From: Chrysochromulina tobinii
Taxonomy: Eukaryota
DNA: 32,572 nt
Assembly (NCBI GenBank): GCA_001275005.1
Contig: JWZX01002444.1
Coordinates: 1-32,572, forward strand
Direction of reading: 5' to 3'
The notes under the pieces were generated by a model. The model saw only the letters and a program-made list of their open reading frames with translations. It did no database searches and was not told where the DNA came from. Shown one piece after another: positions 165 to 18,327 of this stretch; position 1 is the first letter of the stretch; each line of letters starts with the position of its first letter. A program made the translations under genes and the position numbers.

Positions 165-784
165 AAGAAAGCATGGGTCTAACTGAGCCGTCAGGAGGCG
201 GCCATTCCTAAGATGACAGAGGGCCACATAGAAGCTTATACAGGGCTTCAATGGTACAAAGCCCGCAAGCCCCACATGACGTGGCGCTGCTCGGGCATGC
301 AGGTTGCAGCAGCGTGCAGGAGCGGATGTTGGCATGCGCCACACGTGGGTTTGGGATAGATACACGAGGTGGTACGTGTGAAATATAGGGTGAACCCTAG
401 GCGACCCGACCCGAGCCCGAGCCGAAGTTTGAGTGTCATCGTGACACTCGGCCTTCTCCCTCGTCACGTTGGCACGTTTGGACGTTCAAGCATCAAGGAG
501 CCGGGTAGATCGTGTATGATTGTAGTAGACGAGACGCTTCGCTAGAAGTATACCGAATACCCGCTCCACCCCGTTTGTTCGCGCGTTTCGCGCCCCCGCG
601 CCCTGCTACCGTGTTGATGCGTGCGAGGTGTGCTGGATGAGTCCGAACCTGCCCTGTCGCGTGCAGTCCCCAAACCCACAACACTTGCCCGTGGCCCTCT
701 CGCCTCTCCCTCTCGCCTTTGCTGTAATCTGTATCGTTCACACCTCCTCAACGTGCACACCTCCTCCTCGGGTCCACGAGCCCC

Positions 785-2977
785 TCAACGCCCCCGGATC
801 GCCACGACAACGCCCATCAACGCAACCGCCGCGAGGCCGACGAGCGCCGCCACGGGCACCTGAGGGGGCCATCACACGCAACGTCAGGAAGGCGCGCCGT
901 CACGGGCACCCGGACAAGGCCGGCGGGTACGAGCGCCGTCACGGGCACCCGGACGAGGCCGGCGTGATGCGGGTTCGAGCGCCGTCGCGGGCACCTCGTA
1001 CGGGCTGGGTGAGCCTTTCTTCTGCCCTTCGAACGTGGCCGAGAAGTCGAGATCCGCGAGATTGCCCACACGCATCGCCGAGCGCATCGCCGCATCCGCG
1101 GTCGCGGCCACGGGCAAGCGAACGCCCACCTGGCGCGGCAACCAGAGGCGATCAGTGGCAATCAGCGCCCATCAGTGGTAATCAGCGCCTACTAAGCGCC
1201 CATCAGTGGTAATCAACGTCTATCAATCGCAATCAGCTCCTACTAAGCGCCCATCAGTTGCAATGAACGCCCATCAATCGCAATCAGTCGCAATCACCTG
1301 CCGCCCGAGGGCGCATGCGAGGCGCCTGATGAGGGACGCCATCAGTGGCAATCAGTGGCAATCACCTGCCGCCCGAGGGCGCATGCGAGGCGCATGTCCT
1401 TCTGCGCGTGTTTGAGGGGGAAGTTTGGCACGTGGTCGCCTGCGAACATCTCGGCGTCATTGAGCTCATTATGGCAATCGGCGCTCCTCAATCGCAATCA
1501 CGGTGGCAATCACCTGTGAGCATCTTGGCGCCCTTGAGCTCATTATGGCAATCGCAATCACGGTGGCAATCACCTGCGAGCATCTTGGCGCCCTTGAGCT
1601 TGAGGAGCGGCGCGCCGCATACGCCGAGCTCGAGCACCTGCAGCAGCAGCAATCAATGCCAATCAGCGCCGATTAGGGCCCATCATGGCAATCAATGGCA
1701 ATCAATGGCAATCAATGACAATCAGCGCCGATTAGGGCCCATCATCGGCCATCAATGGCAACCAATGGCAATCATCGGCCATCGTGCGCACACGCCGAGC
1801 TCTAATCAATAAATGGCAATGGCAATCAATGGCAATCACCGGCCATCGTGCGCACACGCCGAGCTCGAGCACCTGCAGCAGCTGAGACGCAATCCATCGC
1901 AATCAATCGCAATCAATTGCAATCAGTTGCTATCAGCGGTCATCACCTGCAGAAGCTGGGACGCGTCCAGACCAGCGGCCTGTGCGAGGCTGAAGCCCTC
2001 GCCGTACGCAGCCATCATCGAGCCCATGACCTGTGATGAGGGACGCCATCAGTGGCAATCAGGATGCCATCAGTGGCCATCATCGACGTCATGACCTGCC
2101 ATCACGAGGCCATCACGAGGCCATCACTCGGCGGTGGTCGGGGAGGCAATCAGTGGCAATCAGTGAGATCATTAGCAAGGCCATCGACGAGGTCATGCGA
2201 GATCTGTCGTGCCAACCCGTGTCAATCCGTGCTAATCAGGGAGGTCATTAGGGAGGTCATTAGGGATCAATAGGGAGGTCATGCGAGATCTGCCGTGCCA
2301 ATCCATGCTTATCAGTCGCGAGAGCCCCCCTCCCATGTTCACGCAAAGCTTCATGCAATCCATGCCTATCAGTGCCCATAAGTGGCAATCCGTGCCAGTC
2401 GAGAGAGCCCCCCCCTCACCATGTTCACGCAGAGCTTCATGCGGGTGCCTGCGCCCACCGCGCCAAAGAAGAATTTGGCCTTGCCCATCGCGTCGAGCTC
2501 CTTGGCGCACTTGGCATAGAGAGCCTCGTCGCCGCCGCAGAGGAAGATGAGCTGCCCCTGCGCGGCAGGGCCCTTGGAGCCCGAGACGGGCGCCTCGAGG
2601 AACTGGCCGCCCTTGGCGATCACCTGCGTTGAGAGTCTCTGCATGTCTTCAACAGCGAGCGTCGCGCAGTCGACGACGCATTTGCCGGCGACGACGCCGT
2701 CGAGGATGCCGCCCTCCATCTCGTACACTTCCTTGCAGGCCTCGGGCGTCGAGAGCATGACGTACGTGATCTCGCACGCCGCGATCACCTCGGCAGGCGT
2801 CTCTGCCACCGTGATGTGGTCTGCACCCGCATCCATAAGCAACTTCTCCGGCTTTGCGGGCGTCCGATTCCAGATCACGAGCTTGCGCTTGCCCGTGCCG
2901 ATGAGCTGCCGTGCCATGCCGTCGCCCATGATCCCCAAGCCGATGAAGCCGATGGGTTCGGGGGCGACTGCCGACAT
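785..2977 (-). CDS. GLYR: Glyoxylate/succinic semialdehyde reductase (beta-hydroxyacid dehydrogenase family), 6 exons, about 329 aa, with C-terminal hydrophobic tail
   Basis: Exons 2420-2977, 1947-2030, 1574-1637, 1366-1439, 995-1129 and 785-859 are joined by GT-AG introns that keep frame. Motifs: GFIGLGIMG Rossmann fold, WNRT, EAPVSGSKGPA, KLCVNMVMGSMMAAYGEG, FPLKHAQKD, DLDFSA. The last exon is less certain; without intron 5 the ORF stops at 884. Confidence 0.88.
1130..2419 (-). repeat. GLYR introns 1-4 (2031-2419, 1638-1946, 1440-1573, 1130-1365) filled with degenerate TGATTGC/TGATGGC repeats and exon-end copies
   Basis: Many GCAATCA/GCCATCA units on the + strand, interrupted by the short exons. 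Confidence 0.9.
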
Positions 2978-3343
2978 GGCTGCGTTTCGTGTTTTGACTC
3001 CTTGGATGTGAACGTTAACACGACAGACGCGACAGCCGGTGAAGTGTGAACGCGCTGTCTTGCGCTTTGTACGTGGACTAAAGGTACGTGCGGACCATCG
3101 AAAAATGAATATTTGAGGGGCTCAGCACGTAAGCCTACCAAGGAGGAATTGTTGTGGATGAAAGGAATCATCAAGGATGTAATCAATCGAATAGGTAAAT
3201 TCTCCCACAACGCGCACAAGCACTGCCTCTGGCTCTGTCTCCAAGCGCGCGCATTCAAGCCAGGCTCGTCCCTCAACTTACGGGTTATCCAGCACGTGAG
3301 GGACCACGGGACAGCGTGACTCTCCCTGGGACCACTCTCACTC

Positions 3344-5304
3344 TCACGACAGATGCTTCAGGTATTTGAGGTTCTTTTGCAGCAGCTCGTTCATGGCCGC
3401 GATGTTGTGCTCGAACTTCGCGTCCATCTCGCCCAGCTTCCGATCCAAGTCATCGAGTTGCTTCTCCACACGGGTACGGGTATCGAGCATCTCCTGCGAC
3501 CCGATGGGCCATCATAGGCAATCAGAGGGGCCTTCCGTCGCAATCAAAGGGGCGATCCTTGGGGCAATCAGACGCAATCAGATGCAATCAGAGGGGCGAT
3601 CCTTGGGGCAATCAGACGCAATCAGATGCAATCAGACGCAATCAGATGCAATCAGAGGGGCGATCCTTGGGGCAATCAGACGCAATCAGACGCAATCAGA
3701 GGGGCGATCCTTGGGGCAATCAGACGCAATCAGATGCAATCAGAAGCAATCAGAGGGGCGATCCTTGGGGCAATCAGACGCAATCAGACGCAATCAGACG
3801 CAATCAGATGCAATCAGAGGGGCGATCCTTGGGGCAATCAGACGCAATCAGACGCAATCAGACGCAATCAGACGCAATCAGAGGGGCGATCCTTGGGGCA
3901 ATCCGTGGCAATCAGAGGGAACAGAAGCATCAGCAACTCTCATCATCAACAGTTCATCAGCAGCTCATCAGCTCATCATCAGCAGCACACGCGCCTGGAA
4001 CAGCATGTGGAGCAGGTCATTCGGCTTCATCAACTCCTTCCGCACGCCTCGGAACCTACGCATGGTTCGGCAGAAGCGCCCATCGGAGTGTAACAGCTCA
4101 TTGCCCAGCAGCGCCGACGACTGTGAAGACGACTGTGAACGCTGCAGCCGCTCGAGGTATGACGCCCACGCCGCTTGGATGTAGAAGGCGGCGCACTGCT
4201 TCAACCTCGCATTCGATTCGGACACGGCGATCAGGTTGTTCACGCGGATCTCGGCGTTGCTCAGCTCCATCTCGCGGATGGTCGTCATCACCAGCAGCGC
4301 TGCCATCAACGCACCCCAGCCATCAGTGCCATCATTATCGCTATAATCATCATTAGTGCCATCATTAGTGCCAATCATTAGCGACAATCACCTGCCATCA
4401 GTGCACCCCAGCCACATGCCATTGTGGAGACGAACCGCCCTAAGCCCGTCTGCGGGTAAAAGTCGCCATAGCCAAGGCCTGTCATGGAGACCAGCGCCAG
4501 CCAGAAGTCATTAAGGTAATGGTCGAGGCCCTTGTCGACACGCCGCTCGGCGACCTGTGATGAGGGACGCCATCAGTGGCACTCAGGTGCCATCAATGGC
4601 CCTCAGTGGCCCTCGGTGGCACTCACCTGCAGCGTGAACCCGAAGCAGAGCAACAGCAGCGCCGTGGTGCCTCCGAGGAGGCGGAAGGGGTAGCGCTGGT
4701 ACATGACGCGTATAGAGAGCCACGTGGTGAGGGGCATGTGGTTGATGTTGGCGTACGCGCGCGCCGACTTGGCCGTCAGCCCCGCCAGGTAGGGCATGTA
4801 GTGCACAATCAGCGCGAGCCGCGCGAACATCATGCCCACCGTAAGCAGCTCGTCGGTGGCGAGCGTGGTGGGCAAGGTGCTTCCGCGACGCAGGTCGTAA
4901 TAGGAGACAGTGATCTCGACGTTGAAAAAGGGGACCGGGTGAATGAGGCACAGCAGCGCCTCGGGCAGCATGCTCCACTCGCTCAGCGACACGAAGATTC
5001 CCGACGAGAGCAGCGTATCCTGTGGAAGCAGCGCGTTCGTCGCCTTGAGCAACACAAACTTGCGCCGGTAGTAGATGAGCAGGAAGGCGAGCAGCCAGAG
5101 GGTCGAGAAGGACACGAGCAGTTTCAGCACGTCACACGTTGCGTCCGACTCGCCCCCATGCGCCCAGAGCCAGTAGACCTCGGCGATGGCGAAGCCGACG
5201 CCGAGAGCTGCTGCGATGAGGACCACGGTGAAGTTGCGTTTGAGCCTGAGCTCGATCTGCCGTAGACCACCGTAGCTCGCGGAATAGCTTGAAGCCTTGT
5301 TCAT
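3344..5304 (-). CDS. Small-conductance Ca2+-activated K+ channel-like protein (SK/KCNN-like), 4 exons, about 431 aa
   Basis: Exons 4627-5304, 4392-4554, 3995-4299 and 3344-3493. It has several TM helices, EALLCLIHPVP, a weakly charged S4, a pore region FWLALVSMTGLGYGDFYPQTGLGR, a calmodulin-binding-like segment (ELSNAEIRV...AAFYIQAAW) and a C-terminal coiled coil. The start codon and intron 3 donor are approximate. Confidence 0.82.
3538..3918. repeat. Higher-order intronic minisatellite in K+ channel intron 3
   Basis: Seven GGGGCGATCCTTGGG blocks separated by 3-5 GCAATCAGA(C/T) units. Confidence 0.95.
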
Positions 5305-5518
5305 GCCTGTTCGCACCAATAGCAGGTGACTCAAAGGCCTCCGGGTGCGGCTCTGAGGGGCGGCGGCAGCGGCTCCCGCTCCTGGGCCGCCTATCCAGAC
5401 GCGCTTGCCACCACAGCGGCCAAACTTTCTCGATTTGGGAGTGGGTGTTCCGATTGATTTGATTGTCCTGACGTCAACACAACGCTCATTCGCTCACGTC
5501 GCTCTGGCCTACATGTAC

Positions 5519-7676
5519 TCACTTGTCGACGCCCGTGCCGTTGATGTACGCGAGCAGGGCATCGGCGCACGCGTCCTTCAGATTGCATGCAGGCGCGCGC
5601 GCGTAGCTCTTGCCATGCACACGCCACAGGCGCTCGAAGAGAGACGCGTTCGTCGCCGCGGCCGCCGCGACACCCTCCCAGCTCAGCGGCGACAGGTCGG
5701 CCATCCCAAAGTCTACCGGCAGCTCATATTCGCGCGCGTACAGCGCAGCGCCCGCGGCGTTCGCAGCCGCAATGTCGGCGACGTACGTCGTCGACGCGGT
5801 GGGCGCCCATGACGACGCGTCGAGGGCCCACAGGCGCAGCGCGCTATTGGCCGGTGGGTACGATTCCACAACGGCCGGGACGGAGTGGAGCATGAACAGT
5901 GGCGAGCCGCCGCTGCCGCCCGGCCCGTCTTCGGTGCATGCGCCCGGCACGGCGCTCGCACGGGCCACACACACGGCGGGGCTGGCCGGGTCGGGCGGCA
6001 TGTTGGCGACGCTCGTGCGGAAGCAGCACTGCGCGCCCGTCGTCCCTTCGACCGGGTAGAAAGTGAAGCCGGCACACGACGCCTGGGCGCCACACACGCC
6101 TTCACACAGCGACAGCGTCGCATTCTCATCGAGGGGGGGGGGCGTGAGTGGGCACCACGCGTCGCCGCCCGCGAGCCCCTGTGATGAGGAGGCAATCGGA
6201 GGCAATTAGGGAGGCAATCAGGGGTCATTAGGGAGCTACTCAGGAGCACAATCACATGCAATCAAGGGTCAGTCGGGGGTTGCTCAGGAGCACAATCACC
6301 TCGCCAAACACATCTCCGACGTCGAGGTTGCCGCCGCTGCACCACTTGACAGCGCGAGTGATGCGCCACTGGATGGGCGCAGAGCCATTCGGCGCCGTCG
6401 CGGGCGTACACGAGCGCACGATGGCGGCCTCATCAACATGCACGTGCCCGAAGAAGCCAGCGCGCACCTGCATGCAATGAGTGAGGCCATCAGTGGCAAT
6501 CAGTGGCAATCAGTGGCCATCGAAAGGCCAGCGAGGTGGACGTGTCTGAGGGGCCTGCGCGTACGACGTTTGGGAAGCGCAATCAGAGGGCAATCAGAAC
6601 GCAATCAGAACAGAGCGCAATCAGAACGCAATCAGTGGCAATCAGAGCGTACGACGTTTGGGAAGCGCGTCACGAGCGCCCGGAAACGTGAGAAGAGGCC
6701 AGGTACCCAAGCGCCATGTGGCGGGATGTGGCCGAGTAACACGACTGCGTCGCCCGCGGCGCTCGCCTCCGTGAGCACGCTCTCGAACCACTCGAACTGC
6801 TTCTCACCCGCGATCGAGGCCGCCGACGACGCATTCTTCAGGAGTGGGTTGACGGTCGACCAGTACAAGGTATTGAGGCCAACGACCTTCAGTGGGGAGA
6901 TGAGGGCGCTGTGGTGAGCACTTGCATGCAGAGGGCACGGAGCAGGGTATTGAGGCCAACGACCTTCAGGCCGGGCTCCGGCGAGGTCGCGTAGTAGCCT
7001 CCGGTGCGTAACGTCTCGATCGCCGCCACGTCGGCCGCGAACGTCGCTCCAAAGAGCTCAACGAGTGCGTCGTACAGCCACGCCTGAGTGGGGCCCGCGT
7101 CGACGACGTCATCAATGGTCATCAGAGGTCATCAGAGGTCATCAGAGGTCATCAGCATGCCTGAGCGGGACCTGCGTCGACCACGTCGCCGGGTACGGTG
7201 TCGTGGTTGGCCACGACGCTGAAGACGGCCGCGCTCGGGAATGCCGCCCGCAAGCTGCTCATGCTGCGGTTCACGAGGCTCAGGACCTGCGCTTGCGCCG
7301 GGCTGCTCGAGCTGCACGCCGCTGCTGCGCCAGCCTCGGAAAAGTCCCCTGTGTGAAACACTAAGCGCACGCCAGGCGCTGTGGACGCCATGAACTCGAC
7401 GGCCGCGCTCCAAAGCGCGACGGGCGTCGCACAATTGTCCTGCGGCTCGCCGAACGGCCCTGCGCCGCCCGTCACCCTGGGCACACACGCGGCGGGCATC
7501 CGAGCGCACGCGGCGTGGCTTTCGCAATAGCACCCGGCGCCCAGCGGGATGCCCTCCTCGTAATAAGGGTCTAAGTGCGAGTCCGTGACGTGCCACGCGA
7601 GCACCGGCGCATCCGGCGCGGCCACAGCGAATGCCGCCGCTGCCAAAAGCGTCGCCATCGACAGGTTCTGTTTCAT
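5519..7676 (-). CDS. Secreted acid sphingomyelinase-like (SMPD1/SMPDL3 family) metallophosphoesterase with inserted PAN/Apple-like module, 5 exons, about 565 aa
   Basis: Exons 7161-7676, 6964-7083, 6653-6886, 6300-6467 and 5519-6178. It has a signal peptide and the metallophosphoesterase motifs DSHLD, TGDF, ANHD, GGYY, GLNT, QFEW, GHIPP and GHVH. The C-terminus resembles acid sphingomyelinase (EYELPVDFGMADLSPLSW). Confidence 0.82.
6869..6969. repeat. Perfect 24-nt direct repeat spanning both ends of a 77-nt intron
   Basis: GGTATTGAGGCCAACGACCTTCAG at 6869-6892 and 6946-6969. Confidence 0.97.
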
Positions 7677-7878
7677 GCCTTCAACACTTTCGCTTCGTCA
7701 CTCGACTTCGGACCCGCAAACGCCGACGGCGAAAAGCTGTGAACGAGCTGGAACATGTACGATTGCGTTTGTTTGGATTCGGTTGGACCAGTCTAATGTG
7801 TGACGACTCTTTTTGGAGGAAATTTTCCCACGAACTTTCCCACGCTTCCATTCACGACGACGTGTCGGGCTGGCTCTC
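7677..7878. promoter_or_regulatory. Putative bidirectional promoter region
   Basis: About 200 bp of lower-GC sequence between the divergent start codons of the sphingomyelinase-like and pyruvate kinase genes. Positional evidence only. Confidence 0.4.
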
Positions 7879-9978
7879 ATGCTCCGCCTGCCGGCTCGCC
7901 TCGCGCGCACGCAGCTGTCACGAGCCTCGCGGCAGCTAAGCACGGCCAGCTCCGCGCCGCTCACCAAGCTCGTCTCCACCATTGGTCCTGCCTCCGAGGA
8001 GGCCGAGCCGCTCGCTGGGTGCGTCGCGGCGGGCATGAACGTGATGCGAGTCAACTTCTCGCATGCGACGAAGGACGAGTTCCACCTGCGGCGCACCAAC
8101 CTGCGCGCTGCGCCCGGCGGCGAGTACGTTGCCGTCATGCTCGACACCAAGGGGCCGGAGATCCGCATGGGCGGCCTCAAGGTCTGCAAGGAGACGGGCA
8201 ACCGCAAGGCGAAGATGAAGCTCACCACGGGCCAGACGCTCACCCTGACGAACGACAAGGCGTTCGACGGCGCGGGCGACGAGCGGACGATCTACGTGGA
8301 CTACCCGCGCCTCGCGGAGGTCGTCGAGCCTGGCACCACCGTGCTGCTCGACGACGGGCTCATCTCGCTCGAGGTGGTGAGCGCCGCCGACGGCAAGGTG
8401 ACGACGACGGTGCTCAACAGCAGCGAGATCGGCGAGCGCAAGGGTGTGAACATCCCGGGCGTGGTGACCGGGCTGCCCGCCATGTCCGACAAGGACCTCG
8501 AGGACATCAGCTTCGGCATCGAGCACGACATCGACATGGTCGCCGCTTCGTTTGTTCGCAACGCGGCGGGCGTGCACCAGATTCGCGAGCATATCCTCAA
8601 GTGCCACGAGAAGTACGCGGCGAACGGTGGGATGGACACGCCTCCCCCGATGATCATCTCGAAGATCGAGTCGACCGAGGCTCTCGACAACCTCGCTGAG
8701 ATCATCGAGGCGAGCGATGGCATCATGGTGGCTCGCGGCGACCTCGGGGTCGAGGTACCCCTCGAGAAGGTGACGTCCGACCACAAACATGGAGTTTGAG
8801 TGCTTCGAAGTGCTTCGGATGAGCTCTGATTGCCTCGCCTCATCAGGTCGTGACGTGGCTCTGATTGCCTCGCCTCATCAGGTCGTGACGTGGCAGAAGG
8901 ACATCGTCGCGATGACCTTGGCCGCCGGCAAGCCGGTCGTCGTCGCGACTCAGATGCTCGAGACGATGCAAAAGAACCCGCGCCCTACCCGCGCGGAGGT
9001 AGCCGATGTAACGAATGCGGTGCTCGACGGCGCGGATGCCGTGATGCTCTCGGGCGAGTCGGCCAACGGACTGTACCCGACCGAGTCCGTCGCCATGCAG
9101 GTGATTGCAATTGATTGACGCTGATGCCCACCTTGATTGCCACTTGATGGCCCCCTTGATGACACCTTGATGGCCACCTTGATTGCCACTTGATGGCCCC
9201 CTTGATGACCCCCTTGATGGCCACCTTGATTGCCACTTGATGGCCCCCTTGATGACACCTTGATGGCCACCTTGATTGCCACTTGATGGCCCCCTTGATG
9301 ACACCTTGATGGCCACCTTGATTGCCACTTGATGGCCCCCTTGATGGCCATCTGAGTGCGCACGTGCATTGCATGCAGGCACGCATCGTGGCGGAGGCCG
9401 AGGCTTGGGCGAGTGCCCGTGGGCTCGCCCCAGGAGGCGTCGAGCCTCAGCTCGCGCCCGTATCTCGCTCGATCTCGGCGACCGAGTCGGACTTTGATGA
9501 GGACCAGGAGGAGGAGGAGATGTACCGTCGCGAGCTGACCATTCCGGATAGCATGAGCGCCGCCGCGTGCTTCCTCGCCGCGCGCGTCGGGGCACGTGCG
9601 ATCGTCGTCTTTGAAGACGGATGGGGCGAGACTGCTCGTAACGTCTCCAAGTTTCGTCCGACGGTGCCCATCGCGGCGCTTTGCGACTCTCTCAAGGTGT
9701 GCCGCCAGCTCTCGATCTCGCGTGGCGTCGTGCCGTTACTCGTCGAGCCGCAGCCCGAGATCGCGGGAGATCAGCCCGAGGGCGAAGACGAGTTCCGTAA
9801 CGACATGTTCTCGCTCGACACACTGGATGCCTCCGATGCCTGCTCGCTGGTCGCGGAGCGCACCGGGCTGCTCGAGCCAGGCGACCTCGCGATCGTGCTC
9901 GTCGGGGAGACTATCAGCGTTGAGGTCGTCATGGAGCCGATGGAGTGGGAGGGCGACGAGGCCGAGAGAAAGCCCTGA
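7879..9978 (+). CDS. PYK: Pyruvate kinase with predicted mitochondrial presequence, 3 exons, about 569 aa
   Basis: Exons 7879-8769, 8882-9100 and 9379-9978. Motifs: TKLVSTIGPAS, RVNFSH, LDTKGPEIR, SKIES, IMVARGDLGVE, ATQMLETM, PRPTRAE, DAVMLSGES, SKFRP. Confidence 0.95.
9126..9351. repeat. Intronic minisatellite in pyruvate kinase intron 2
   Basis: About 46-nt unit CCACCTTGATTGCCACTTGATGGCCCCCTTGATGACACCTTGATGG, repeated about 5 times and built from TTGAT-core subunits. Confidence 0.95.
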
Positions 9979-10967
9979 ACCCAACGCGTGAGCCCTAATA
10001 TGGAGTGGGAGGGCGATGAGGCCGAGAACTACGGGCGACGTTTCGGCCGCGAAAGCCGCACTCGCCGCGAGGAGGCCTCGTCTCCGAGCGCTCAGCGCCG
10101 AGATGAGCGCCGAGATGATTCTCAGAACACGCGACTGATTCTCAGCCGAACATGCAGCGCACGGCATAAAGCTGGGGCGGTAGTATTGCCTGATTGTCGT
10201 CTGTCTCTCCCAACCCGTTGGCGTGTTCTCTGTTCTGACTTCTGTGTCCTCAAACGTAAAAGGAACTACACCCGAGGCCGAGCGGTATAGCCCCCGGCCT
10301 TCCGCATAGCTCCGCTCCGCATCGGGCGTACACCCATGCGTACACCGTACTGAATCTCGAATCTCGAATCTCGTCCCGCGCCGCTCTAAGCGGAAAGCGC
10401 ACGGGCCACGGCGAGAGCGTCCGCCGTTTGCGGCGCGACACGCAGACCCCGCTCGTAAATATGTCATAATAGTAAATTATCGCGAACCGTTTACGTGTAC
10501 GCGGGCCCCATGTGACGCGGCCCGCGCCAGAGGGCGCGCAGGTTTTTCCCGCCCCCGCCCGGGCCCGCGGCGGGCATACACGCATACTGCCGTACGTATT
10601 CGAAGGAATTCCTATGAGATCCGAATACGGGCGTATGTGCGGACGAGTGGGCCCCGAGGGCTCTCCACTCCGTCCAATCAAAGGTCATCAGCGGCAATCA
10701 GTGCAAGTACCCTGCCCCGTGGGCTCTCCACTCCGTCCACTCCCCGCCAGCTTCCATGCAGCATGCCATACTCATACGTGATTCTCGAGGCGTGATTCGT
10801 CGGTTTCGTCGAGATGCAGCATGCCATGCTCATGCGTGACGCTCCTCGTCGGCGTCGTCAGTACGATCTCCCTTGATCTCCCTTGATCGCCCTTGGCTCT
10901 CAATGACACTCCTGCTCTCGTTGTGGCATGCATGTTCATCTGCTTAAGACCGTTGCTTGCATGGTCA

Positions 10968-12753
10968 TCATCTTAAGATTGAGTACTCCGCCCCCGGCGT
11001 TCTCCCCACCTCCCCCGGCATCAGAGGCGTTGGGCGTACCGGCCCGAAATCGGCAAAGATGGGCGCCCACGCCGTCGAGTCGAAAGGCACATCCTTCATG
11101 ACGCCGTTCGGTCCGAATTCCGCATCGGAAGGCGCCGCCCCGTCCTCGGAAATTGGCGGCAGCCAGGGCGCGGGCAGCTCCTTGCGCAGCAAAGCCGTCC
11201 ATGAGAACCCAACGAACCATGGATCAAGCTGCAGACCGAGACGCGAGGCACGAGCGGCGCTCAGCGACCATCGACCGACAAGGGTTTCGTCAGTGGGGAT
11301 GCCGGTAGATAAATCTCCGAGCTCAGCGGCCATCGAGCGGCACTCTGCGGCCATCAGAGGCCATCAGAGGCCATCAGCGGCCATCAAGAGGCCATCAGCG
11401 GCCATCAGCGGTCATCAGCGGTCATCAGCGGTCATCAGCGGCCATCAGCGGCCATCAGTGGTCATCAGCGGCCATCAGCGGCCATCAGCAGCCATCAAGA
11501 GGCCATCGAGCGGCCATCAGCGCACCTGCAGAGCGAGGAAGCCTTCGGGGCCGCATCCAATCCGTTCAGTCTCTCGCGCGCGTAAAAGTCCTATAAGGAA
11601 AGCACCGGCGGCTCTCGAGAGGTTCTCGGCGGTGCGACTCACCTGAGCGAGGAAGTTCCATATTAGGGAGTCAAGGTGGACCCTAAGTTCCATATTAGGG
11701 AGTCAAGGTGGACCCTAAGTTCCATATTAGGGAGTCAAGGCGGGAGCCGAAATGACAAAGACTCAGGGGGGGAGAGGGAAGCAATCCGCGCCGAGATGAG
11801 GGAAGCAATCCGAGGGCTCGTGGATGAGCTCTGATGAGGGAAGCAATCCGAGGGCTCGTGGATGAGCTCTGATGAGGGAAGCAATCCGAGGGCTCGTGGA
11901 TGAGCTCTACCTGTCGTTGAAGCCGCTCCGCGGCTTCGTGTCCTCCGCGCGTATACTGTTCGATAAGCGCGAAGATATCTTGAGCGGAGCGCCCCTCGAA
12001 GGGGGGGCGCCCGGTGAGCATCTCATGCAGCAGCACCCCCAGCCCCCACCAGTCCGCCGCCGTCGAGCGACCCTTGCCCGAGACGACCTCGGGCGGCGCG
12101 TACTCATCGGTTCCGCATTTGGTAAAGGTGCGTGACTCGGAGACGCACTTGGCAAAGCCGAAGTCGCAGAGCTTGACGTAACCGTCGCCGCCGATGAGCA
12201 CGTTCTCGAGCTTCACGTCTCGGTACACGTACCCACGCGAGTGGATGTGACGAAGCGCGAGCGCCACCGTCGCCGTGTAGAAGCGCGCGTGGTCCTCGCG
12301 CACGCCGGTCGGAAAGAGATCGAGGAGGCCGAAGAGGTCTCCTCCGGACATGAGCTCGAGGCAAAAGTAGAGGGAGGAGTGGTCCTGGAACGTGCCGAAC
12401 AGCCGCGTGATGAATGGGTGTCGGCAGTCCATCAGCGCCTCCTTCTCGGTGAACACACGCATCGCCGACTTGCGCGGCAGCGCGGCCAGCCGGCCCTTGC
12501 GTACCTGCTTGACCGCGTAGCGCAGGCCGCTGTGCGAGTCCTCGGCGAGCCACACGCCCCCCTGCCCGCCTAGCCCTATGGGCCGCCGGAAGCGCATGGT
12601 ATGCAAGCTAAAGTTGCTCTCCTGGTGTTCGTCGGCCGCCTTGAGAATCTCTTCGGTCACGTCGTCGAGATCCTCTATCTTCAGCTGGTCTACGAGCGAA
12701 GCGGCAGCCATGGCATCGGAGAGGTCCTTGCTCGACGACATATTGCGCCGCAT
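10968..12753 (-). CDS. AGC-group Ser/Thr protein kinase (PKA/PKG-like catalytic domain), at least 3 exons
   Basis: Exons 11911-12753, 11526-11642 and 10968-11228. Motifs: GLGGQGGV, YAVK, HPFITRL, YRDVKLEN, DFG, TKCGTDEYAPPE, DWWGLG, and an AGC tail (DPWF..FSW..LLRKELPAPWLPP, FADF). The start and extreme 3' end are uncertain. Confidence 0.88.
11348..11520. repeat. 10-nt tandem repeat in kinase intron 2
   Basis: G(C/T)CATCAGCG-type units in tandem. Confidence 0.95.
11653..11908. repeat. Two tandem arrays in kinase intron 1
   Basis: A 32-nt unit AAGTTCCATATTAGGGAGTCAAGGTGGACCCT (about 3 copies, 11653-11740) and a 38-nt unit GATGAGGGAAGCAATCCGAGGGCTCGTGGATGAGCTCT (3 copies, 11795-11908). Confidence 0.95.
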
Positions 12754-13861
12754 GCTACAAATGTTGGCGAGCCGACTCGACAGCCCCGCTTCTGGACCTT
12801 CCGCGCGCTCGCGACCGTCGCGTGTCCACAACGCGGAGAGGTTCCCCACGAAACCGAGATGAGACCTCAACGAAGGTGGAGTGACGAAAGGAGGAACTTA
12901 ATGAATGACGCGAGATTGGAAATGAAATGGCGGTGACCAATCACAAGAGCGGAACGGAAAAGTAGGGAAGAAAATGACCTCGCAGGTGCACGGGGCGCGG
13001 GGCTGCCCGGCGGGGGCCTTCGCCTGAAAAATGCCATCACAATAAATTTATACCGTACTTCAACCCCACGCACGCGGCGCAGGGCTCGCGCTCAAAGCGT
13101 TATGGGCGGCCGTCCTGGAATCCGAGGACCTCCTGCCGCACATCCTGGCGCCCTCGACTGCATCGGTTGGCGGTTCCCTTGACGTGTCGCCTGTGGCGCA
13201 CGATTTCCCTTGTTTGTCCATGCTCCCCTCTTTGAACCGGACCGTGCAACCGTCCGGTACCGCAACTGAGAACTGGAGGATCTGAAGATCTGAACAGCAC
13301 TTTTTCAACACATTTCCCGTCTGGGCATTACATGTATTCTCACGACTCTCGAGACCTACCACAAAAGCCCATCCCCGGATGGCAGCGGTCGACTGACCGC
13401 ACTTTACATGTAAAAAGGCATCACGTGGCGAATCACATCTCGAATTCTCGATACTCTCTAATTCACAGACAGCCCTTGTGGTCGACTCTCAACGTCTCAA
13501 GTCATCAAGCTCACCGCAGGTGTGGAATTGTTCTGTAGGTGTGAATGAGGACTCCCCGCAGCAAGCAAGCAAGCTAATTAGTCGACACACACACAGGCGT
13601 GCCGACCATCAGGTCCGGCCGAGCTTGCATGCATATATATACGATATATCGCCAATATTACCATATCGGGCATCGTAATGAACGCTGAGTGCGTCGCATG
13701 AGAGCTTCGAGAAAGCTTCGAGAACGCTCTCGCTCTCGTGCGCTGCGCTCTGTCGTGTTGTTGTTGTTGCGGACAGCACGACCCTGAGTTGGCCCAGTGA
13801 CGGAGCACACTCGCGCTTCATGCTCTGCGAACTGGCCCACGTGTGACCTTCACCACAGCGA

Positions 13862-15508
13862 ATGAGCGACCCGATTTGCCCCGGAATAACCGCCGCAGGG
13901 AAGTTGCTCGGGCGCGAGGAGGCCGCAGCGGGCGTCTTCTCGCCAGGCTATGCGCATCCTGTGCCGACGGACGACGCTCCTCCATGCTTCCGCTGCTGGG
14001 CACTGCCCGACGCATGCCTCGAGGTGCTTCCTACGAGACTAACATCAAAGGGTGCGTACGACGATCCACGAAGCAACGTGATCGGCGTGAAACTCTACCC
14101 GATAAACTCGCGGCCCTTTCGGCTCCATGTCGCCGGCCTCACCCATGCAGAGCTGCGCACGCGGCTCGATCGGCTCAAGGCGTTTGTCATGGACCCACTG
14201 AGGTCCGAGCTGCTCCGTCACCTTGAGTCAGACGTTTTTTGGATTGACCGCGCCAGTGCCAGCTTGCGCTGGCCACTCTACCCTGCGGGTGGGTCGGGCA
14301 ATGCCTCTGGCAATGCAGGCGCTGCAGGCGGTGACGACGAGCTCGTCATGATCTGGCCGAGATGGGAAAAGGGCTATGGCGACGTGATCGCGAACACGCT
14401 GCTACCTTTTGGCGAGATGCTGCGACGCGGCACGCCACCGCGCCACTTGGCGCTCTCGGGCATGCGTCACGCCACGCTGCTGCCGCCTCTCCGAGCGGCG
14501 ACGGTTTCACTGTGTGGAATCGAGAGAGACAATGAACCTCTGCTGCCTCGGTGCGTGTCCACTTGCTGGCGGGCTGTGCGCATCTGCGCGCCCAATTTTG
14601 CCGAGTCGACTGCGGACACTTGGCTCGATACTATAGCCCTTGACGCAGCCGCCGCCGCTGTGGATGTCGCCGCACCTACCGCCGCCAGCGCTGCCATTGC
14701 AGTTGCCGCCGCCGTCGCCGCCGCAGCAGCCACAGATGCCGCACCTACCGCCGCCGCACACATCGCCGCCGCCGCCGCCTCCTTGCCGCCACCGCCCGTC
14801 ACACGGCGCTCGACACGGCGCGAGCTTCGCGTGCTCATCGCGTCGCGCTCAGGTCGACGTCTTCTAGCTAACGATGCAGCGCTCAGTGCGGCCTGCGACG
14901 GCGTCGAGCTCGAAGGCACGCGACTCCGCTGCTCGCTTCTGCCGGCCTCGCTCCCGCAGGCCGCCAAGATTGCGCGCTTGCGCGAGGCCGACGCCTACGT
15001 GTGCGTGTGGGGAGGGGACACCGTGCATGCTCTCCATATGCGCCAAGGCTCGGCGGTGATCGAGCTGCGCAACGAAGGGTTCGCGAAGGGTGCGCCCCAC
15101 ACTTGGCTCGATCTGCACAAGCGCTGGGTGACGCGCTATGCCGGTCCATCGTTCAGCCGGCCACTCCACTTCACGTCCATCACGCTGCCTGCAAACTGGA
15201 CTATCCTTCGCGCAGCCGAGCACGAGTGCTTTGTACACAACGCCAAGGAGCGGAAGAAATTGATCGCGTCCAACGCCAAGGAGATTCCACAGGACGATTG
15301 GCTGTGTTACTGGAACGCTGACTTTAACGTGCCCTTCGAGCAGCTGCGCCCCGCGCTCGAAAAGCACATCCAGCGGCTCAAAAAGCTCGAGCCCCACCTC
15401 TGGGGCAGCGGCGTCAATACCACCAAGTCATTCAGAAGAACCAAAAGGAAAAAGAAGGCCAGAACAAGAACCTCCTCTGATCCTCGCTCTCCTGAAACAC
15501 ATGGGTGA
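13862..15508 (+). CDS. Glycosyltransferase family 61-like protein
   Basis: 548-aa ORF. The C-terminal segment RRLLAN...KIARLREADAYVCVWGGDTVHALHMRQGSAVIEL matches the GT61 pattern (..AD..VGVHGAGLTN..FM..G..VIE), recognised from memory. Confidence 0.65.
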   Translation: MSDPICPGITAAGKLLGREEAAAGVFSPGYAHPVPTDDAPPCFRCWALPDACLEVLPTRLTSKGAYDDPRSNVIGVKLYPINSRPFRLHVAGLTHAELRTRLDRLKAFVMDPLRSELLRHLESDVFWIDRASASLRWPLYPAGGSGNASGNAGAAGGDDELVMIWPRWEKGYGDVIANTLLPFGEMLRRGTPPRHLALSGMRHATLLPPLRAATVSLCGIERDNEPLLPRCVSTCWRAVRICAPNFAESTADTWLDTIALDAAAAAVDVAAPTAASAAIAVAAAVAAAAATDAAPTAAAHIAAAAASLPPPPVTRRSTRRELRVLIASRSGRRLLANDAALSAACDGVELEGTRLRCSLLPASLPQAAKIARLREADAYVCVWGGDTVHALHMRQGSAVIELRNEGFAKGAPHTWLDLHKRWVTRYAGPSFSRPLHFTSITLPANWTILRAAEHECFVHNAKERKKLIASNAKEIPQDDWLCYWNADFNVPFEQLRPALEKHIQRLKKLEPHLWGSGVNTTKSFRRTKRKKKARTRTSSDPRSPETHG

Positions 15509-15652
15509 GAGCGTTAGGGGCCGGGCTAGTTCGTTTTAGTTTTGAAAGTTACTCGCTTTAAGCGAAGTAAAGTAGGATCTGAGGCCTCTGTCACTCTCGA
15601 ACACTCTCGTCTTCCGTTCGATCCTTAGTGCATAGGTTTACCGTGGCTGCTT

Positions 15653-16336
15653 TTAGTCACCAGGGAGAGGGTGCTCGCTGCCCCCCTCGGTGGCCATGTA
15701 CTCATCGAACTGCTTTCTCAGGTTTGCGTACAGTTCCGAAGGCGGATCGCCTGCCGCCTGTTGGCGCAGCTCTTCGCGGAGGAGAGTCTGGATCCGACCA
15801 TTCCAGCTCGTCCAAGAGTAGCCATTGCCTGTTCGTCCGGTCCATGAGGTCGACGGAGCTCCGGTGATCTGGACGTCACCCGTCCCGAGCAGCTCGCGAC
15901 GCAGATCTTCGTTTGCGAGCAGCTTGGCTCGACAAATACGCAGCATCACCTCGATCTTGACAGCATCCCAATCCGAGCGCAGGTCGGCCCTGGCACCCTC
16001 GCGCCATACGCGCATGCCATGGTTGTGGTCTGTCTCGCCAGCGAAAGGAAGCATCCGCTGTATCCGTTGACGCCCGCTCGCACCGTGAGCCGTAGTTTTG
16101 AGAAACTTGCATGCCTGATAGCACTGCTCGACAGACTGCCACGTGTCACCGTCGAAATGGAATTGGGCGACTTGAAAGTTATCAGTGCACGGAGGGCCAC
16201 TGATGCGCTTTCGTGGCGCGACAGCGGGCGTCAACGCCACATGTCCACCAAGTGCCTGTGCGTCGGTGCCGTGGCTAAGTGCTACAGCGTCTGCAGGCAA
16301 TGGCTCCTCGATGAGAAGATAGCATGGGCCACCCAT
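15653..16336 (-). CDS. NADAR-domain (YbiA-like) N-glycosidase
   Basis: DNF...FHFDGDTWQSVEQCYQACKF and RSDWDAVKIEVMLRICRAK...LRRELLGTGD are typical NADAR segments. The first in-frame ATG is at 16336. Confidence 0.8.
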   Translation of the reverse strand: MGGPCYLLIEEPLPADAVALSHGTDAQALGGHVALTPAVAPRKRISGPPCTDNFQVAQFHFDGDTWQSVEQCYQACKFLKTTAHGASGRQRIQRMLPFAGETDHNHGMRVWREGARADLRSDWDAVKIEVMLRICRAKLLANEDLRRELLGTGDVQITGAPSTSWTGRTGNGYSWTSWNGRIQTLLREELRQQAAGDPPSELYANLRKQFDEYMATEGGSEHPLPGD

Positions 16337-17207
16337 GTGCGCGAGGTGCTCGTGTGAAAAAAGAATCAAGCGTCGCCGCGGGCGGTACCGGTAAAAAGAC
16401 ACCGGGGGGAGCCGGGACACTCACGGACGGTACCGGTACCTCTTCTTGAGTGACGAATTGTAACCGATGGCTATGAAGTGCTGATCAAACACCCTCCGAT
16501 GAGTATGTGTGATAATGTGTGAGTATGTGTGGTACGTTGGTCGTTTCGTAGGACGTTCAGATATCAGGAGTTAATGCGGAGGCGTGCATGTCGGAGGGTG
16601 TACCGGTATGTTCAAAAACACCGGAGGGAGCCGGAACACACGGGGGACAGACACACGGATCAGTGAGGACAAACAACCTCAGAACCGCGACCACACCATG
16701 CGGCTCACTGTTCGTTGTTCGAATCACTGTTACGCGTTACGGGTCACGGCGGCCGTCTCAACCGGTGATTCTGTGTGGGCACCCGGGGTTGGCGGTGACC
16801 GTGCTCGTGCGTAGGTGAGTTGGTTGGGTTCTTACTACGTAGATTCAATGTGCGAACCGGCACGCCGCCGTCGCCGCGTCGCGCAGCAGTGGCAGGAGTT
16901 ACGACCGGCACGGAGAGTGACCAGGGACGGGGTCTCGGCGGTCTGTCTAATCTTAGCTGTCAGGCGTTGCGTCTTTAGTTGTGTCCCCCGTTCGGCTCCC
17001 TGTTCGGTCTTTTTAGCGTTATTAAACACGCATATTCGTGTGCTAGCTTGCTTTCTTCAAGTCGTCTTCAACCCGGAACTGTATTGACTGAATTCGACCA
17101 CATAACGTTGCCCTCGTTTCGCCTCGCTGCATTGTTGAAATAGCGTGACGTTCGGTGCAATTGCTGCCTCCACGTAAGCACACGGTCGCGAGCACACATG
17201 GCGCACA

Positions 17208-18131
17208 TCAGCACGTCGTGCACTCAAGCATGGAGAAAGGGAAACACCGCGTTGCACCTCGAAATTCCTTGCCGATGCCAAATTTTGCGACGCAGCTGTC
17301 AATGTCCACCTCGAATCCTCTAGTATGGAGATCTCTTGCCGGCATGCGTAGCATCGCTGCCTCCTTTTCGGCAGGCCAGTGGCAGAAATCAGCAAAAGAA
17401 CGGTTCGTGTATTTCTCCATGAATCTTGTGGAGAATAGCACAGCGTGCCATCCACGATTTCCTGGTTGGCGCCCAGAGATGGGACTGAGCTCATGGTAAT
17501 GTGTCGAGAGCTGTTTCCCCATGACAGCTCGAAATGAGCCTAGGAGTGCAAGATCAACGTTCGTTGATCGATGCATGAAGTTCACTCCTTCGACGATTAT
17601 GCTGCGCGCAGCAAGCGCCGGAAGAGACGGTGCAAGGCAAGCGTCGTCTTCGAAACGCAGTAATGGCGCCTTGAAGTGGGCTAGTGCAACTCGGAACATA
17701 TCTTGTGCATTCACCCAGCTTGCCTGCTTGACGCACATGCTTGCCCTGTCTGCAACGATGCCGTTATCGCGGTATCCCGTACATGCCTTCGCTTCATGGA
17801 CTCGCAGCAATGTGGTGGCAGGCAGCGCCTGTTGTAATTGGCTGACCACCATCGCAGACAAGTTAGTTCGTGTGGTCAAGATTGCGGCATGAAAGTGTGT
17901 GACGTCTCCCGCGCTCTCACTTGCACTGAGAGCATGAGTGGGCTGGCTGCTCAAGGTACTCATGCCTCCCCTTTGTCGCACCTCTTCTCTCTCACTCCTG
18001 CAGGTCGCTCTCCCCAAGGCGTCGCACGCACCTCGCCCCACTCGCGGGCGAAGCCGCGTGAATACAATCGTTCTGTACTGTACCGTACCGGCAACTTTGG
18101 AGGTCCACACGAGTGCGCGTGAAGTGTGCAT
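17208..18131 (-). CDS. Putative GT-A glycosyltransferase (GT25-like); boundaries uncertain
   Basis: The motifs LLRFEDDA, DLALLG and GWHAVLFS occur in GT25-like order. GC content is lower than in neighbouring genes, and the N-terminus is unclear. Confidence 0.45.
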   Translation of the reverse strand: MHTSRALVWTSKVAGTVQYRTIVFTRLRPRVGRGACDALGRATCRSEREEVRQRGGMSTLSSQPTHALSASESAGDVTHFHAAILTTRTNLSAMVVSQLQQALPATTLLRVHEAKACTGYRDNGIVADRASMCVKQASWVNAQDMFRVALAHFKAPLLRFEDDACLAPSLPALAARSIIVEGVNFMHRSTNVDLALLGSFRAVMGKQLSTHYHELSPISGRQPGNRGWHAVLFSTRFMEKYTNRSFADFCHWPAEKEAAMLRMPARDLHTRGFEVDIDSCVAKFGIGKEFRGATRCFPFSMLECTTC

Positions 18132-18327
18132 GGACGCGGAAGCAGACGAGGAAGCCGACTAGCCCATGGCGAAGTCGCCAAGTATGGCATCCGGTGTGTT
18201 TGAACGGTACCAGGTACGTTGAACCACGACGACGCGTCGAAGATACAAGATACATGGTGACGTGGAACGCTCCGCTTCACGTCCAAGCGGCCCGCGCTTG
18301 CCCATCCGATACTGGCAGTAGGTGCTC

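What the first reader, a model, noticed from the sequence alone, without database searches (positions are those of the whole stretch)
1326..8881. Shared intron termini across unrelated genes: possible Introner-like family
27 identical nt (CTGTGATGAGGGACGCCATCAGTGGCA) form the acceptor end of both GLYR intron 1 (2031-2057) and K+ channel intron 1 (4555-4581). Related ...CCTCATCA(CA)G ends occur at 1326, 6179, 8846 and 8881, and inside the kinase 38-mer. Five introns begin GTGATTG. Intron 6179-6299 reads AG|GTGAT...ATCAC-AG, which resembles a short terminal inverted repeat with an AG target duplication. Known: Introners are transposon-derived intron families in other algae. Inference: a common mobile or templated source.
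Basis: partly seen in the sequence, partly recalled or inferred. Interest (0 to 1): 0.78.

Follow-up and report, generated by a model that had tools for sequence, protein, structure and literature searches.

The report
Algal introns built from copied introns
Many introns in this freshwater alga are a 10-55-base duplicate of the neighbouring exon joined to repeat filler whose splice ends recur in unrelated genes, which suggests new introns are likely made by copying pieces of existing ones during DNA repair rather than by a classic jumping gene.

Summary
The shared ends are real and widespread, but this is not a classic Introner family. RNA contigs confirm 14 introns. The 27-mer ends two of them, and the match extends to 48 of 52 columns. 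The '1326' and '8846' ends are unused internal copies. In 141 metagenome loci, mostly apparently the same haptophyte, 191 of 216 motif hits are followed by G or CAG, usually after same-strand decamer repeats. Whole introns are not alike (best pair 66%), and the inverted repeat is at most 5 nt.

The footprint is a long duplication of the flanking exon. It is in 10 of 14 window introns, and 76 of 200 repeat arrays have one (controls 1-2). One class takes its donor from the duplicate and its acceptor from a shared cassette; a mirror class does the reverse. Junctions show microhomology, neighbouring introns share ends more than distant ones, and paralogs lack the intron at 3 of 3 testable sites.

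Best reading (0.5): intron gain by staggered-break repair, with filler copied from existing introns. Gain itself is not proven. The scan noted the same footprint earlier on another piece of this genome (e1-2577349).

The parts
2031..2419 (-). GLYR-like dehydrogenase intron 1 (GT-AG, 389 nt); holds copies of the upstream exon end and the downstream exon start; ends in the shared cassette
   Evidence: RNA joint
2031..2082 (-). 3' 52 nt of GLYR intron 1, 48 of 52 columns identical to 4555-4605 (includes the 27-mer)
4555..4626 (-). SK potassium-channel intron 1 (GT-AG, 72 nt); pure decamer filler plus cassette, no long exon copy
   Evidence: RNA joint
860..994 (-). GLYR intron 5; starts with a 19-nt copy (2 mismatches) of the downstream exon (class A geometry)
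1130..1365 (-). GLYR intron 4; GTGATTG donor; internal unused cassette at 1326-1343 followed by a 28-nt copy of the upstream exon end (1298-1325)
1440..1573 (-). GLYR intron 3; GTGATTG donor; ends in a diverged 27-nt copy of the upstream exon end, with a second copy inside (class D)
1638..1946 (-). GLYR intron 2; contains a 40-nt copy of the joined exon-exon junction (1851-1890)
3494..3994 (-). K-channel intron 3 (GC donor); long decamer/44-nt array, no exon copy found
4300..4391 (-). K-channel intron 2; GTGATTG donor; ends in a 23-nt copy of the upstream exon end (class D)
6179..6299 (-). Intron 4 of a phosphodiesterase-like gene (label from my reading of the sequence; exon 1 had no Pfam hit); GTGATTG donor and CCTCATCACAG acceptor give the 5-nt 'TIR'; no exon copy
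6468..6652 (-). Intron 3 of the same gene; contains a 28-nt copy of the joined junction (6553-6580); ends in the second cassette (CTCATTGCATGCAG)
6887..6963 (-). Intron 2 of the same gene; starts with an exact 18-nt copy of the downstream exon (24-nt direct repeat in all); carries the third cassette (GTGCTCACC...)
7084..7160 (-). Intron 1 of the same gene (GC donor); ends in a 27-nt copy of the upstream exon end (class D)
8770..8881 (+). Pyruvate kinase intron 1; 35-nt tandem duplication across the acceptor (unused end at 8846, used end at 8881)
9101..9378 (+). Pyruvate kinase intron 2; GTGATTG donor, 11-12-nt repeats, second-cassette-like end; only 7 nt shared with the exon end
11643..11910 (-). 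Protein kinase intron 1 (inferred); three 38-mer copies with internal CCTCATCA just after the donor
   Evidence: open frame; RNA contig piece ends at 11909
11229..11525 (-). Protein kinase intron 2 (inferred); decamer array
   Evidence: open frame; RNA contig ends near 11235

Best explanation
These introns are built from a 10-55-nt duplicate of the adjacent exon plus a filler of decamer repeats and splice cassettes shared across genes, and they likely arise when a staggered DNA break in an exon is repaired by copying part of an existing, often nearby, intron into the gap. Shown: the anatomy; two mirror classes (A: donor from the duplicated downstream-exon start and acceptor from the filler; D: donor from the filler and acceptor from the duplicated upstream-exon end); sense-strand bias; variable duplication length; junction microhomology; excess identity between neighbouring introns. 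Inferred: a staggered break with 3' overhangs, fill-in that makes the duplication, a 3' end that primes on intron DNA through a few matching bases, and selection that keeps only frame-neutral, spliceable results. Also inferred: the CTGAT in the decamer is a branch-point-like motif, so each copy brings a ready branch point, pyrimidine tract and CAG. Later slippage and boundary-spanning tandem duplications lengthen the introns and leave unused internal acceptors such as 1326 and 8846.
For: 10 of 14 RNA-verified window introns hold a copy of their own flanking exon (score 15-31; other introns' junctions reach at most 11), and two hold the joined exon-exon junction. 76 of 200 arrays have flanking direct repeats at score 14 or more, against 1 and 2 in two controls. 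33 of 78 terminal acceptors have an upstream copy of the next exon's start, against 0 and 0. There are 44 class A introns, 43 with an open frame across the junction; copies are 6-55 nt, mean 23, with 5.8% mismatches and 15 perfect. Class D: 15 of 51 repeat donors against 1 control. The exon after the main cassette starts GT in 103 of 137 cases against 2 of 15 in class D (p=4e-6), so AG|GT is a footprint of donor co-option, not a splicing requirement. Copy-to-repeat microhomology is 4.0 nt against 1.5 in the null, in the 14 of 36 cases where it could be scored. Same-contig acceptors share 27 or more terminal nt in 3 of 88 pairs against 22 of 9228 (p=0.002; permutation at 24 nt p=0.009). The window pair scores 38 against at most 24 for 404 other ends. 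Paralogous sites lack the intron for 3 of 3 testable introns, and no shared position was seen. Precedent: direct repeats at Daphnia neointrons (PMC4202315) and tandem duplications at 3'-overhang breaks (PMC8355091).
Against: Gain is not shown against orthologs. Two strain pairs share all their aligned introns, and an intronless paralog can be a retrocopy. 4 of 14 window introns, including 4555-4626 and 6179-6299, have no long exon copy. Neighbour likeness of decamer variants is weak (0.034-0.046 against 0.023 between loci), and the excess of long shared ends rests on 3 pairs. Local copying alone does not explain why 77 of 136 sites carry one identical cassette variant; selection or long-range copying is needed. 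37 of 80 direct-repeat pairs give no frame-neutral intron by themselves. Some class D calls are nested or doubtful. Loci were seeded on the motif, so fractions are biased. DNA and RNA templates cannot be told apart here.
Confidence: 0.5

Rival explanations
1. RNA-templated gain. A nick primes reverse transcription on intron RNA (excised intron or pre-mRNA), as in target-primed reverse transcription, giving a fixed 3' end at the acceptor AG, a variable 5' end and a long variable target duplication.
For: Class A geometry is exactly duplication-insert-duplication with the insert ending at AG. Adjacent arrays under 1 kb apart are on the same strand in 111 of 114 cases, and the acceptor motif is sense to the downstream coding sequence in 69 of 85. 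In the window only one short array lies beyond 12 kb, just 3' of a gene and on its strand.
Against: Class D inserts have a fixed donor end and a variable 3' end, which needs internal priming. No RT, integrase or transposase family was among the families shown for 84 of 141 long ORFs near the motif. Selection and cis copying also explain the strand bias.
Confidence: 0.2
2. No gain. These are old introns with a long lineage-specific branch-point/acceptor consensus kept by selection, reshaped by boundary-spanning tandem duplications ('mirages'), deletion and gene conversion.
For: Tandem duplications across existing acceptors and donors are plain in the window (8770-8881, 1130-1365) and in loci (47 of 76 direct-repeat cases nested). 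Repeat number differs between strains. The cassette reads as branch point, pyrimidine tract and CAG with A at -17 (partly by construction of the search).
Against: It does not easily give clean exon|copy-filler-AG|exon introns (44) or joined-junction copies inside introns. It does not explain why 75% of exons after the cassette start GT when class D introns splice without it. Paralogs lack the intron at 3 of 3 sites.
Confidence: 0.2
3. Classic Introner: a non-autonomous DNA transposon (MITE-like) with GTGAT...ATCAC inverted ends and a short AG target duplication.
For: Shared termini in unrelated genes. Introners are reported in marine Chrysochromulina MAGs, one with a 4-bp TSD supplying the 3' site (PMC9860276).
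Against: Best global identity among 120 intron pairs is 66%, between simple repeats; TIR at most 5 nt. CACAG ends are only 5 of 238 cassette ends. Duplications are long and variable, not a fixed 2-9 nt. The two 27-mer introns are 72 and 389 nt long.
Confidence: 0.07

Closest known systems
Introners / introner-like elements (Gozashti et al. 2022, PMC9860276: passages and supplementary table rows; dinoflagellate ILEs, bioRxiv 10.1101/2020.10.14.339549: passages and section 5)
   Same: [quoted passage not shown]
   Different: Those TSDs are fixed per family and 3-9 nt, and family members are alike near both ends. Here the duplication is 10-55 nt and variable, the insert is a variable low-complexity array, and there is no TIR. 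That screen filtered out partial-length and low-complexity similarity.
Daphnia pulex neointrons from staggered double-strand-break repair (PMC4202315, passages)
   Same: A direct repeat of the adjacent exon end at the far end of the intron; repeated internal duplications lengthen young introns.
   Different: Daphnia repeats are 4-12 bp and the filler source is mostly unknown. Here the repeats are several times longer and the filler is recognisably other introns' repeats and splice cassettes.
Tandem genomic duplication of AG|GT (Rogers model) and intron transfer (review PMC3443670, passages)
   Same: In some cases both splice sites come from a duplicated exon stretch containing AG|GT (18 of 80 pairs with the site mid-copy).
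   Different: A foreign filler lies between the copies, and transfer is between non-paralogous genes.
Amphioxus 'mirage' minisatellites (PMC3087553, passages)
   Same: Tandem copies of intron-exon boundaries leave unused internal splice sites (1326, 8846, loci L071, L087, L121, L160).
   Different: Mirages duplicate an existing boundary. They do not give clean copy-filler-copy introns or cassettes shared across genes.
Emiliania huxleyi intronic 10-11-bp tandem repeats with strand bias (Read et al. 2013; recalled, paper not held)
   Same: Haptophyte introns rich in strand-biased decamer-scale repeats; GC donors occur (PMC4028052 passages for the donors).
   Different: As recalled, no exon-duplication footprint or gain mechanism was described; this could not be checked.

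Membership tests
Introner (Gozashti et al. 2022 criteria) | Sequence similarity between introns of non-paralogous genes reaching near both ends | tested here: not met
   Best global identity 66% of 120 pairs; longest shared 5' end 11 nt; the 27-mer pair differs 72 vs 389 nt. Tested on 16 window introns, not genome-wide.
Introner (Gozashti et al. 2022 criteria) | Not low-complexity or microsatellite-like | tested here: not met
   Fillers are 10-12-nt tandem arrays.
Introner (Gozashti et al. 2022 criteria) | Many copies, enriched in genes and spliced out | tested here: met
   191 of 216 hits followed by G or CAG; sense to downstream coding sequence in 69 of 85; 14 window introns spliced in RNA contigs.
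DNA-transposon (MITE) Introner | Terminal inverted repeat of 6 nt or more | tested here: not met
   0-5 nt in 15 introns; folding z-scores -2.1 to +0.3 for 6 introns.
DNA-transposon (MITE) Introner | Fixed short target-site duplication (3-9 nt) | tested here: not met
   Copies of 6-55 nt, mean 23; 14-76 nt in the array-flank set.
DNA-transposon (MITE) Introner | Autonomous partner with matching ends | tested here: inconclusive
   None among 84 of 141 long ORFs scanned; no whole genome held.
Break-repair neointrons (Daphnia type) | Direct repeat of the adjacent exon terminus at the opposite intron end | tested here: met
Break-repair neointrons (Daphnia type) | Recent gain shown by presence/absence among alleles or sister species | tested here: inconclusive
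   Two strain pairs share their introns; paralogs lack the intron at 3 of 3 sites.
Target-primed retro-insertion | Fixed 3' end with variable 5' truncation and variable TSD | tested here: inconclusive
   Fits class A; class D has the fixed end on the 5' side.
Target-primed retro-insertion | Dependence on a reverse transcriptase | not testable with these tools
   Needs experiment.
Mirage minisatellite | Tandem copies of an intron-exon boundary, with only the authentic site used | tested here: met
   RNA uses 8881, not 8846, and skips 1326. It holds for a subset of introns only.

The most novel reading that the evidence does not exclude
A transposase-free, self-feeding intron factory. Existing introns act as templates for repair of breaks in nearby exons, so branch-point repeats and acceptor or donor cassettes spread gene to gene. 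The process may have made thousands of this haptophyte's introns and may explain the strand-biased decamer repeats of haptophyte introns generally.
Probability: 0.4. Interest if true: 0.85.

Novelty: new variant of a known kind. Interest (0 to 1): 0.68.

Why it matters
The source of new intron sequence is a long-standing open question; in Daphnia most fillers have no known origin (PMC4202315). Here both the target duplication and the filler source are legible in many introns, so gain by break repair or RNA-templated insertion becomes directly testable with strain genomes. The published Introner screen filters out partial and low-complexity similarity, so this route would be missed. The internal decoy splice sites and exon copies will also mislead gene prediction in haptophytes.

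Tried and rejected
No whole genome was held, and the metagenome records could not be opened as whole contigs, so genome-wide numbers are extrapolated from loci.

The viral-contig scan gave 32 hits, only 2 with even one upstream repeat word; these were treated as chance background.

An Rfam scan of the window found nothing. RNA folding of 6 introns showed no consistent hairpin; only 4555-4626 reached z=-2.1.

Replitrons were considered and dropped: the paper reports no TSDs for families other than Replitron-1 (PMC10288648 passages).

The first microhomology test had a null that ignored extension bias; it was redone.

Decamer-variant likeness between neighbours gave only a weak signal. The first shared-suffix test grouped by locus, not contig, and was redone.

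Strain alignments found no presence/absence.

Fifteen loci judged non-algal were dropped from then on (16); instead left out 38 loci of low repeat density.

Paper searches and term look-ups in three haptophyte genome papers (PMC4580454, PMC8379373, PMC12480563) found no description of this footprint. The library lacks most subscription papers, and the Gozashti supplement was cut when stored (62 of 214 Chrysochromulina places seen). In it 'tobin' occurs once, in the list of screened genomes.
Full report
Setting. The window is from a GC-rich haptophyte. The nearest named pyruvate kinase homolog is Haptolina brevifila at 77% (search limited to proteins of 521-2000 aa). DNA holders are mixed-culture metagenomes with 95-96% of words, and one RNA holder is a freshwater metagenome. 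A Chrysochromulina-type alga is my inference. No genome was held. Pfam names the SK channel, the NAD-binding dehydrogenase and pyruvate kinase.

Observation. RNA contigs define 14 introns: 860-994, 1130-1365, 1440-1573, 1638-1946, 2031-2419, 3494-3994 (GC donor), 4300-4391, 4555-4626, 6179-6299, 6468-6652, 6887-6963, 7084-7160 (GC donor), 8770-8881 and 9101-9378. The spliced frames are open. Two kinase introns are inferred. The 27-mer is exact, ends two used acceptors, and extends to 48 of 52 columns. Five introns begin GTGATTG. The ends at 1326 and 8846 and in the kinase 38-mer are internal copies. The TIR is at most 5 nt and the AG 'duplication' is the splice context.

Spread of the motif. 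They come from mixed cultures and lakes. Overlapping loci from different assemblies are 93-100% identical in most blocks, so most are probably one species or close strains. None overlaps the window, so identity with the window's organism is indirect. Of 216 distinct hits, 188 are followed by G and 3 by CAG. Upstream repeat words are on the same strand 467 times and on the opposite strand 11 times. Downstream sequence scores better as sense coding in 69 of 85 cases. Away from the seed, 157 kb hold 6 exact and 17 family sites. On a 59-Mb genome such as C. tobin's (PMC4580454) that is roughly 2,000 and 6,000 sites, biased upward by clustering. Two further acceptor cassettes recur (7 and 15 terminal cases against 137).

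Not an Introner family. Whole introns are not alike: the best of 120 pairs is 66%, between simple arrays. The published screen needs similarity near both ends and removes low-complexity families (PMC9860276). Known TSDs are fixed at 3-9 nt.

The real footprint. Ten of 14 verified introns contain a copy of their own flanking exon, and two contain the joined exon-exon junction. In loci, 76 of 200 arrays are bracketed by direct repeats against 1 and 2 in controls. This includes 56 of 146 arrays without the seed motif, with 29 of the 76 clean on both sides. Class A introns start with a copy of the next exon and end in a cassette: 44 found among roughly 150 terminal acceptors, 43 in frame, 6-55 nt, 15 perfect. 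Class D introns start with a repeat donor and end in a copy of the previous exon: 15 of 51, control 1, a few doubtful. Exons after the main cassette start GT in 103 of 137 cases but in only 2 of 15 class D cases. This suggests most cassette introns took their donor from a duplicate, even where it has decayed.

Source of the filler. Where the copy abuts repeats directly (14 of 36 cases), it overlaps them by 4.0 nt against 1.5 in the null. Long identical ends are about 15-fold commoner on the same contig (3 of 88 against 22 of 9228). The window pair carries a rare variant: its 20-nt core occurs 0 times in the loci, and the variant is at 3 of 136 sites. Its 52-column match beats all 404 other ends. 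Two introns of one gene in L047 share about 60-70 nt of non-repeat sequence (seen). The window pair was chosen after the fact, and variant likeness overall is weak.

Gain or remodelling. The window's intronless 1558-aa gene has a paralog on L047 with many such introns, one with a perfect 15-nt copy at a site that is continuous in the window gene. Filamin-repeat paralogs likewise lack two introns. No shared position was seen. Against this, two strain pairs share all aligned introns and differ only in repeat number, and retrocopies can lack introns. Gain is likely but not proven.

Mechanism. Breaks with 3' overhangs give tandem duplications, and polymerase-theta joining uses microhomology (PMC8355091 passages). 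Daphnia neointrons carry 4-12-bp exon repeats (PMC4202315). I put DNA-templated repair from existing introns at 0.5, RNA-templated insertion at 0.2, remodelling of old introns (mirage-like, PMC3087553) at 0.2 and a classic Introner at 0.07. Reading CTGAT as a branch point rests on general splicing knowledge and its position at -17 (partly built into the search); it is untested. No RT or transposase family was shown for 84 of 141 long ORFs near the motif, and Rfam found nothing in the window.

Novelty. The parts are known; their combination of a long variable duplication, intron-derived filler and two mirror classes was not found in my searches. The strand-biased repeats of Emiliania introns are recalled only, and supplements I could not see in full may bear on whether marine Chrysochromulina Introner families match these cassettes. 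An earlier scan note on another piece of this genome (e1-2577349) reported the class A footprint and read it as a short mobile sequence. I had the class A result before seeing it, and it is not independent support. This report adds RNA verification, the mirror class, the GT contrast, microhomology, local copying and paralog checks, and it favours piecemeal copying over a fixed element. Verdict: real, a new variant of a known kind, interest 0.68.

Noticed in passing
window 700-12800 vs 13800-32572: All five intron-bearing genes are adjacent and have a first exon over 500 nt with introns crowded 3'; the genes in the next 19 kb appear intronless and almost free of arrays. This fits local spread but was not tested genome-wide.
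   Followed up: partly
window 6896-6925 (-); L035, L047, L056, L083, L091, L098, L104, L107, L110: A third conserved intron cassette (GCATGCA-GTGCTCACCACGGCGCC, then pyrimidines and CACAG) recurs in unrelated genes; 15 terminal cases, all followed by GT or GC.
   Followed up: partly
window 10675-10700 (-) and 30552-30584 (+): Short decamer arrays 3' of coding regions, on the gene's strand; possibly UTR introns or unspliced inserts.
   Followed up: no
window 24666-29342 (+); L047:800-4400 (-): Intronless 1558-aa gene with a repeated helical module; an intron-rich paralog at about 45-50% identity lies on L047.
   Followed up: partly
window 2997-3041: High-copy short sequence just upstream of the GLYR gene: very high DNA-contig depth and many loose ends at 3007 and 3041, suggesting a dispersed repeat in the promoter.
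   Followed up: no
window 15656-16336 (-): NADAR/YbiA (DUF1768)-family gene by cluster names, with repeated GGTACC-containing motifs upstream at about 16380-16640.
   Followed up: no
window 31041-31985 (+): Gene with very long Asp tracts alternating with Lys/Ala-rich repeats, resembling a nucleolar phosphoprotein (recalled likeness).
   Followed up: no
window 9982-10019: The end of the pyruvate kinase gene appears duplicated downstream (about 9940-9975 vs 10000-10030), with RNA loose ends at 9982-9983.
   Followed up: no
L070:1819-4254, L071:1-1700, L074:8700-10800: A multi-copy gene family at 50-90% identity on three contigs; the L070 ORF has LRR hits and the other two have no Pfam hit.
   Followed up: partly
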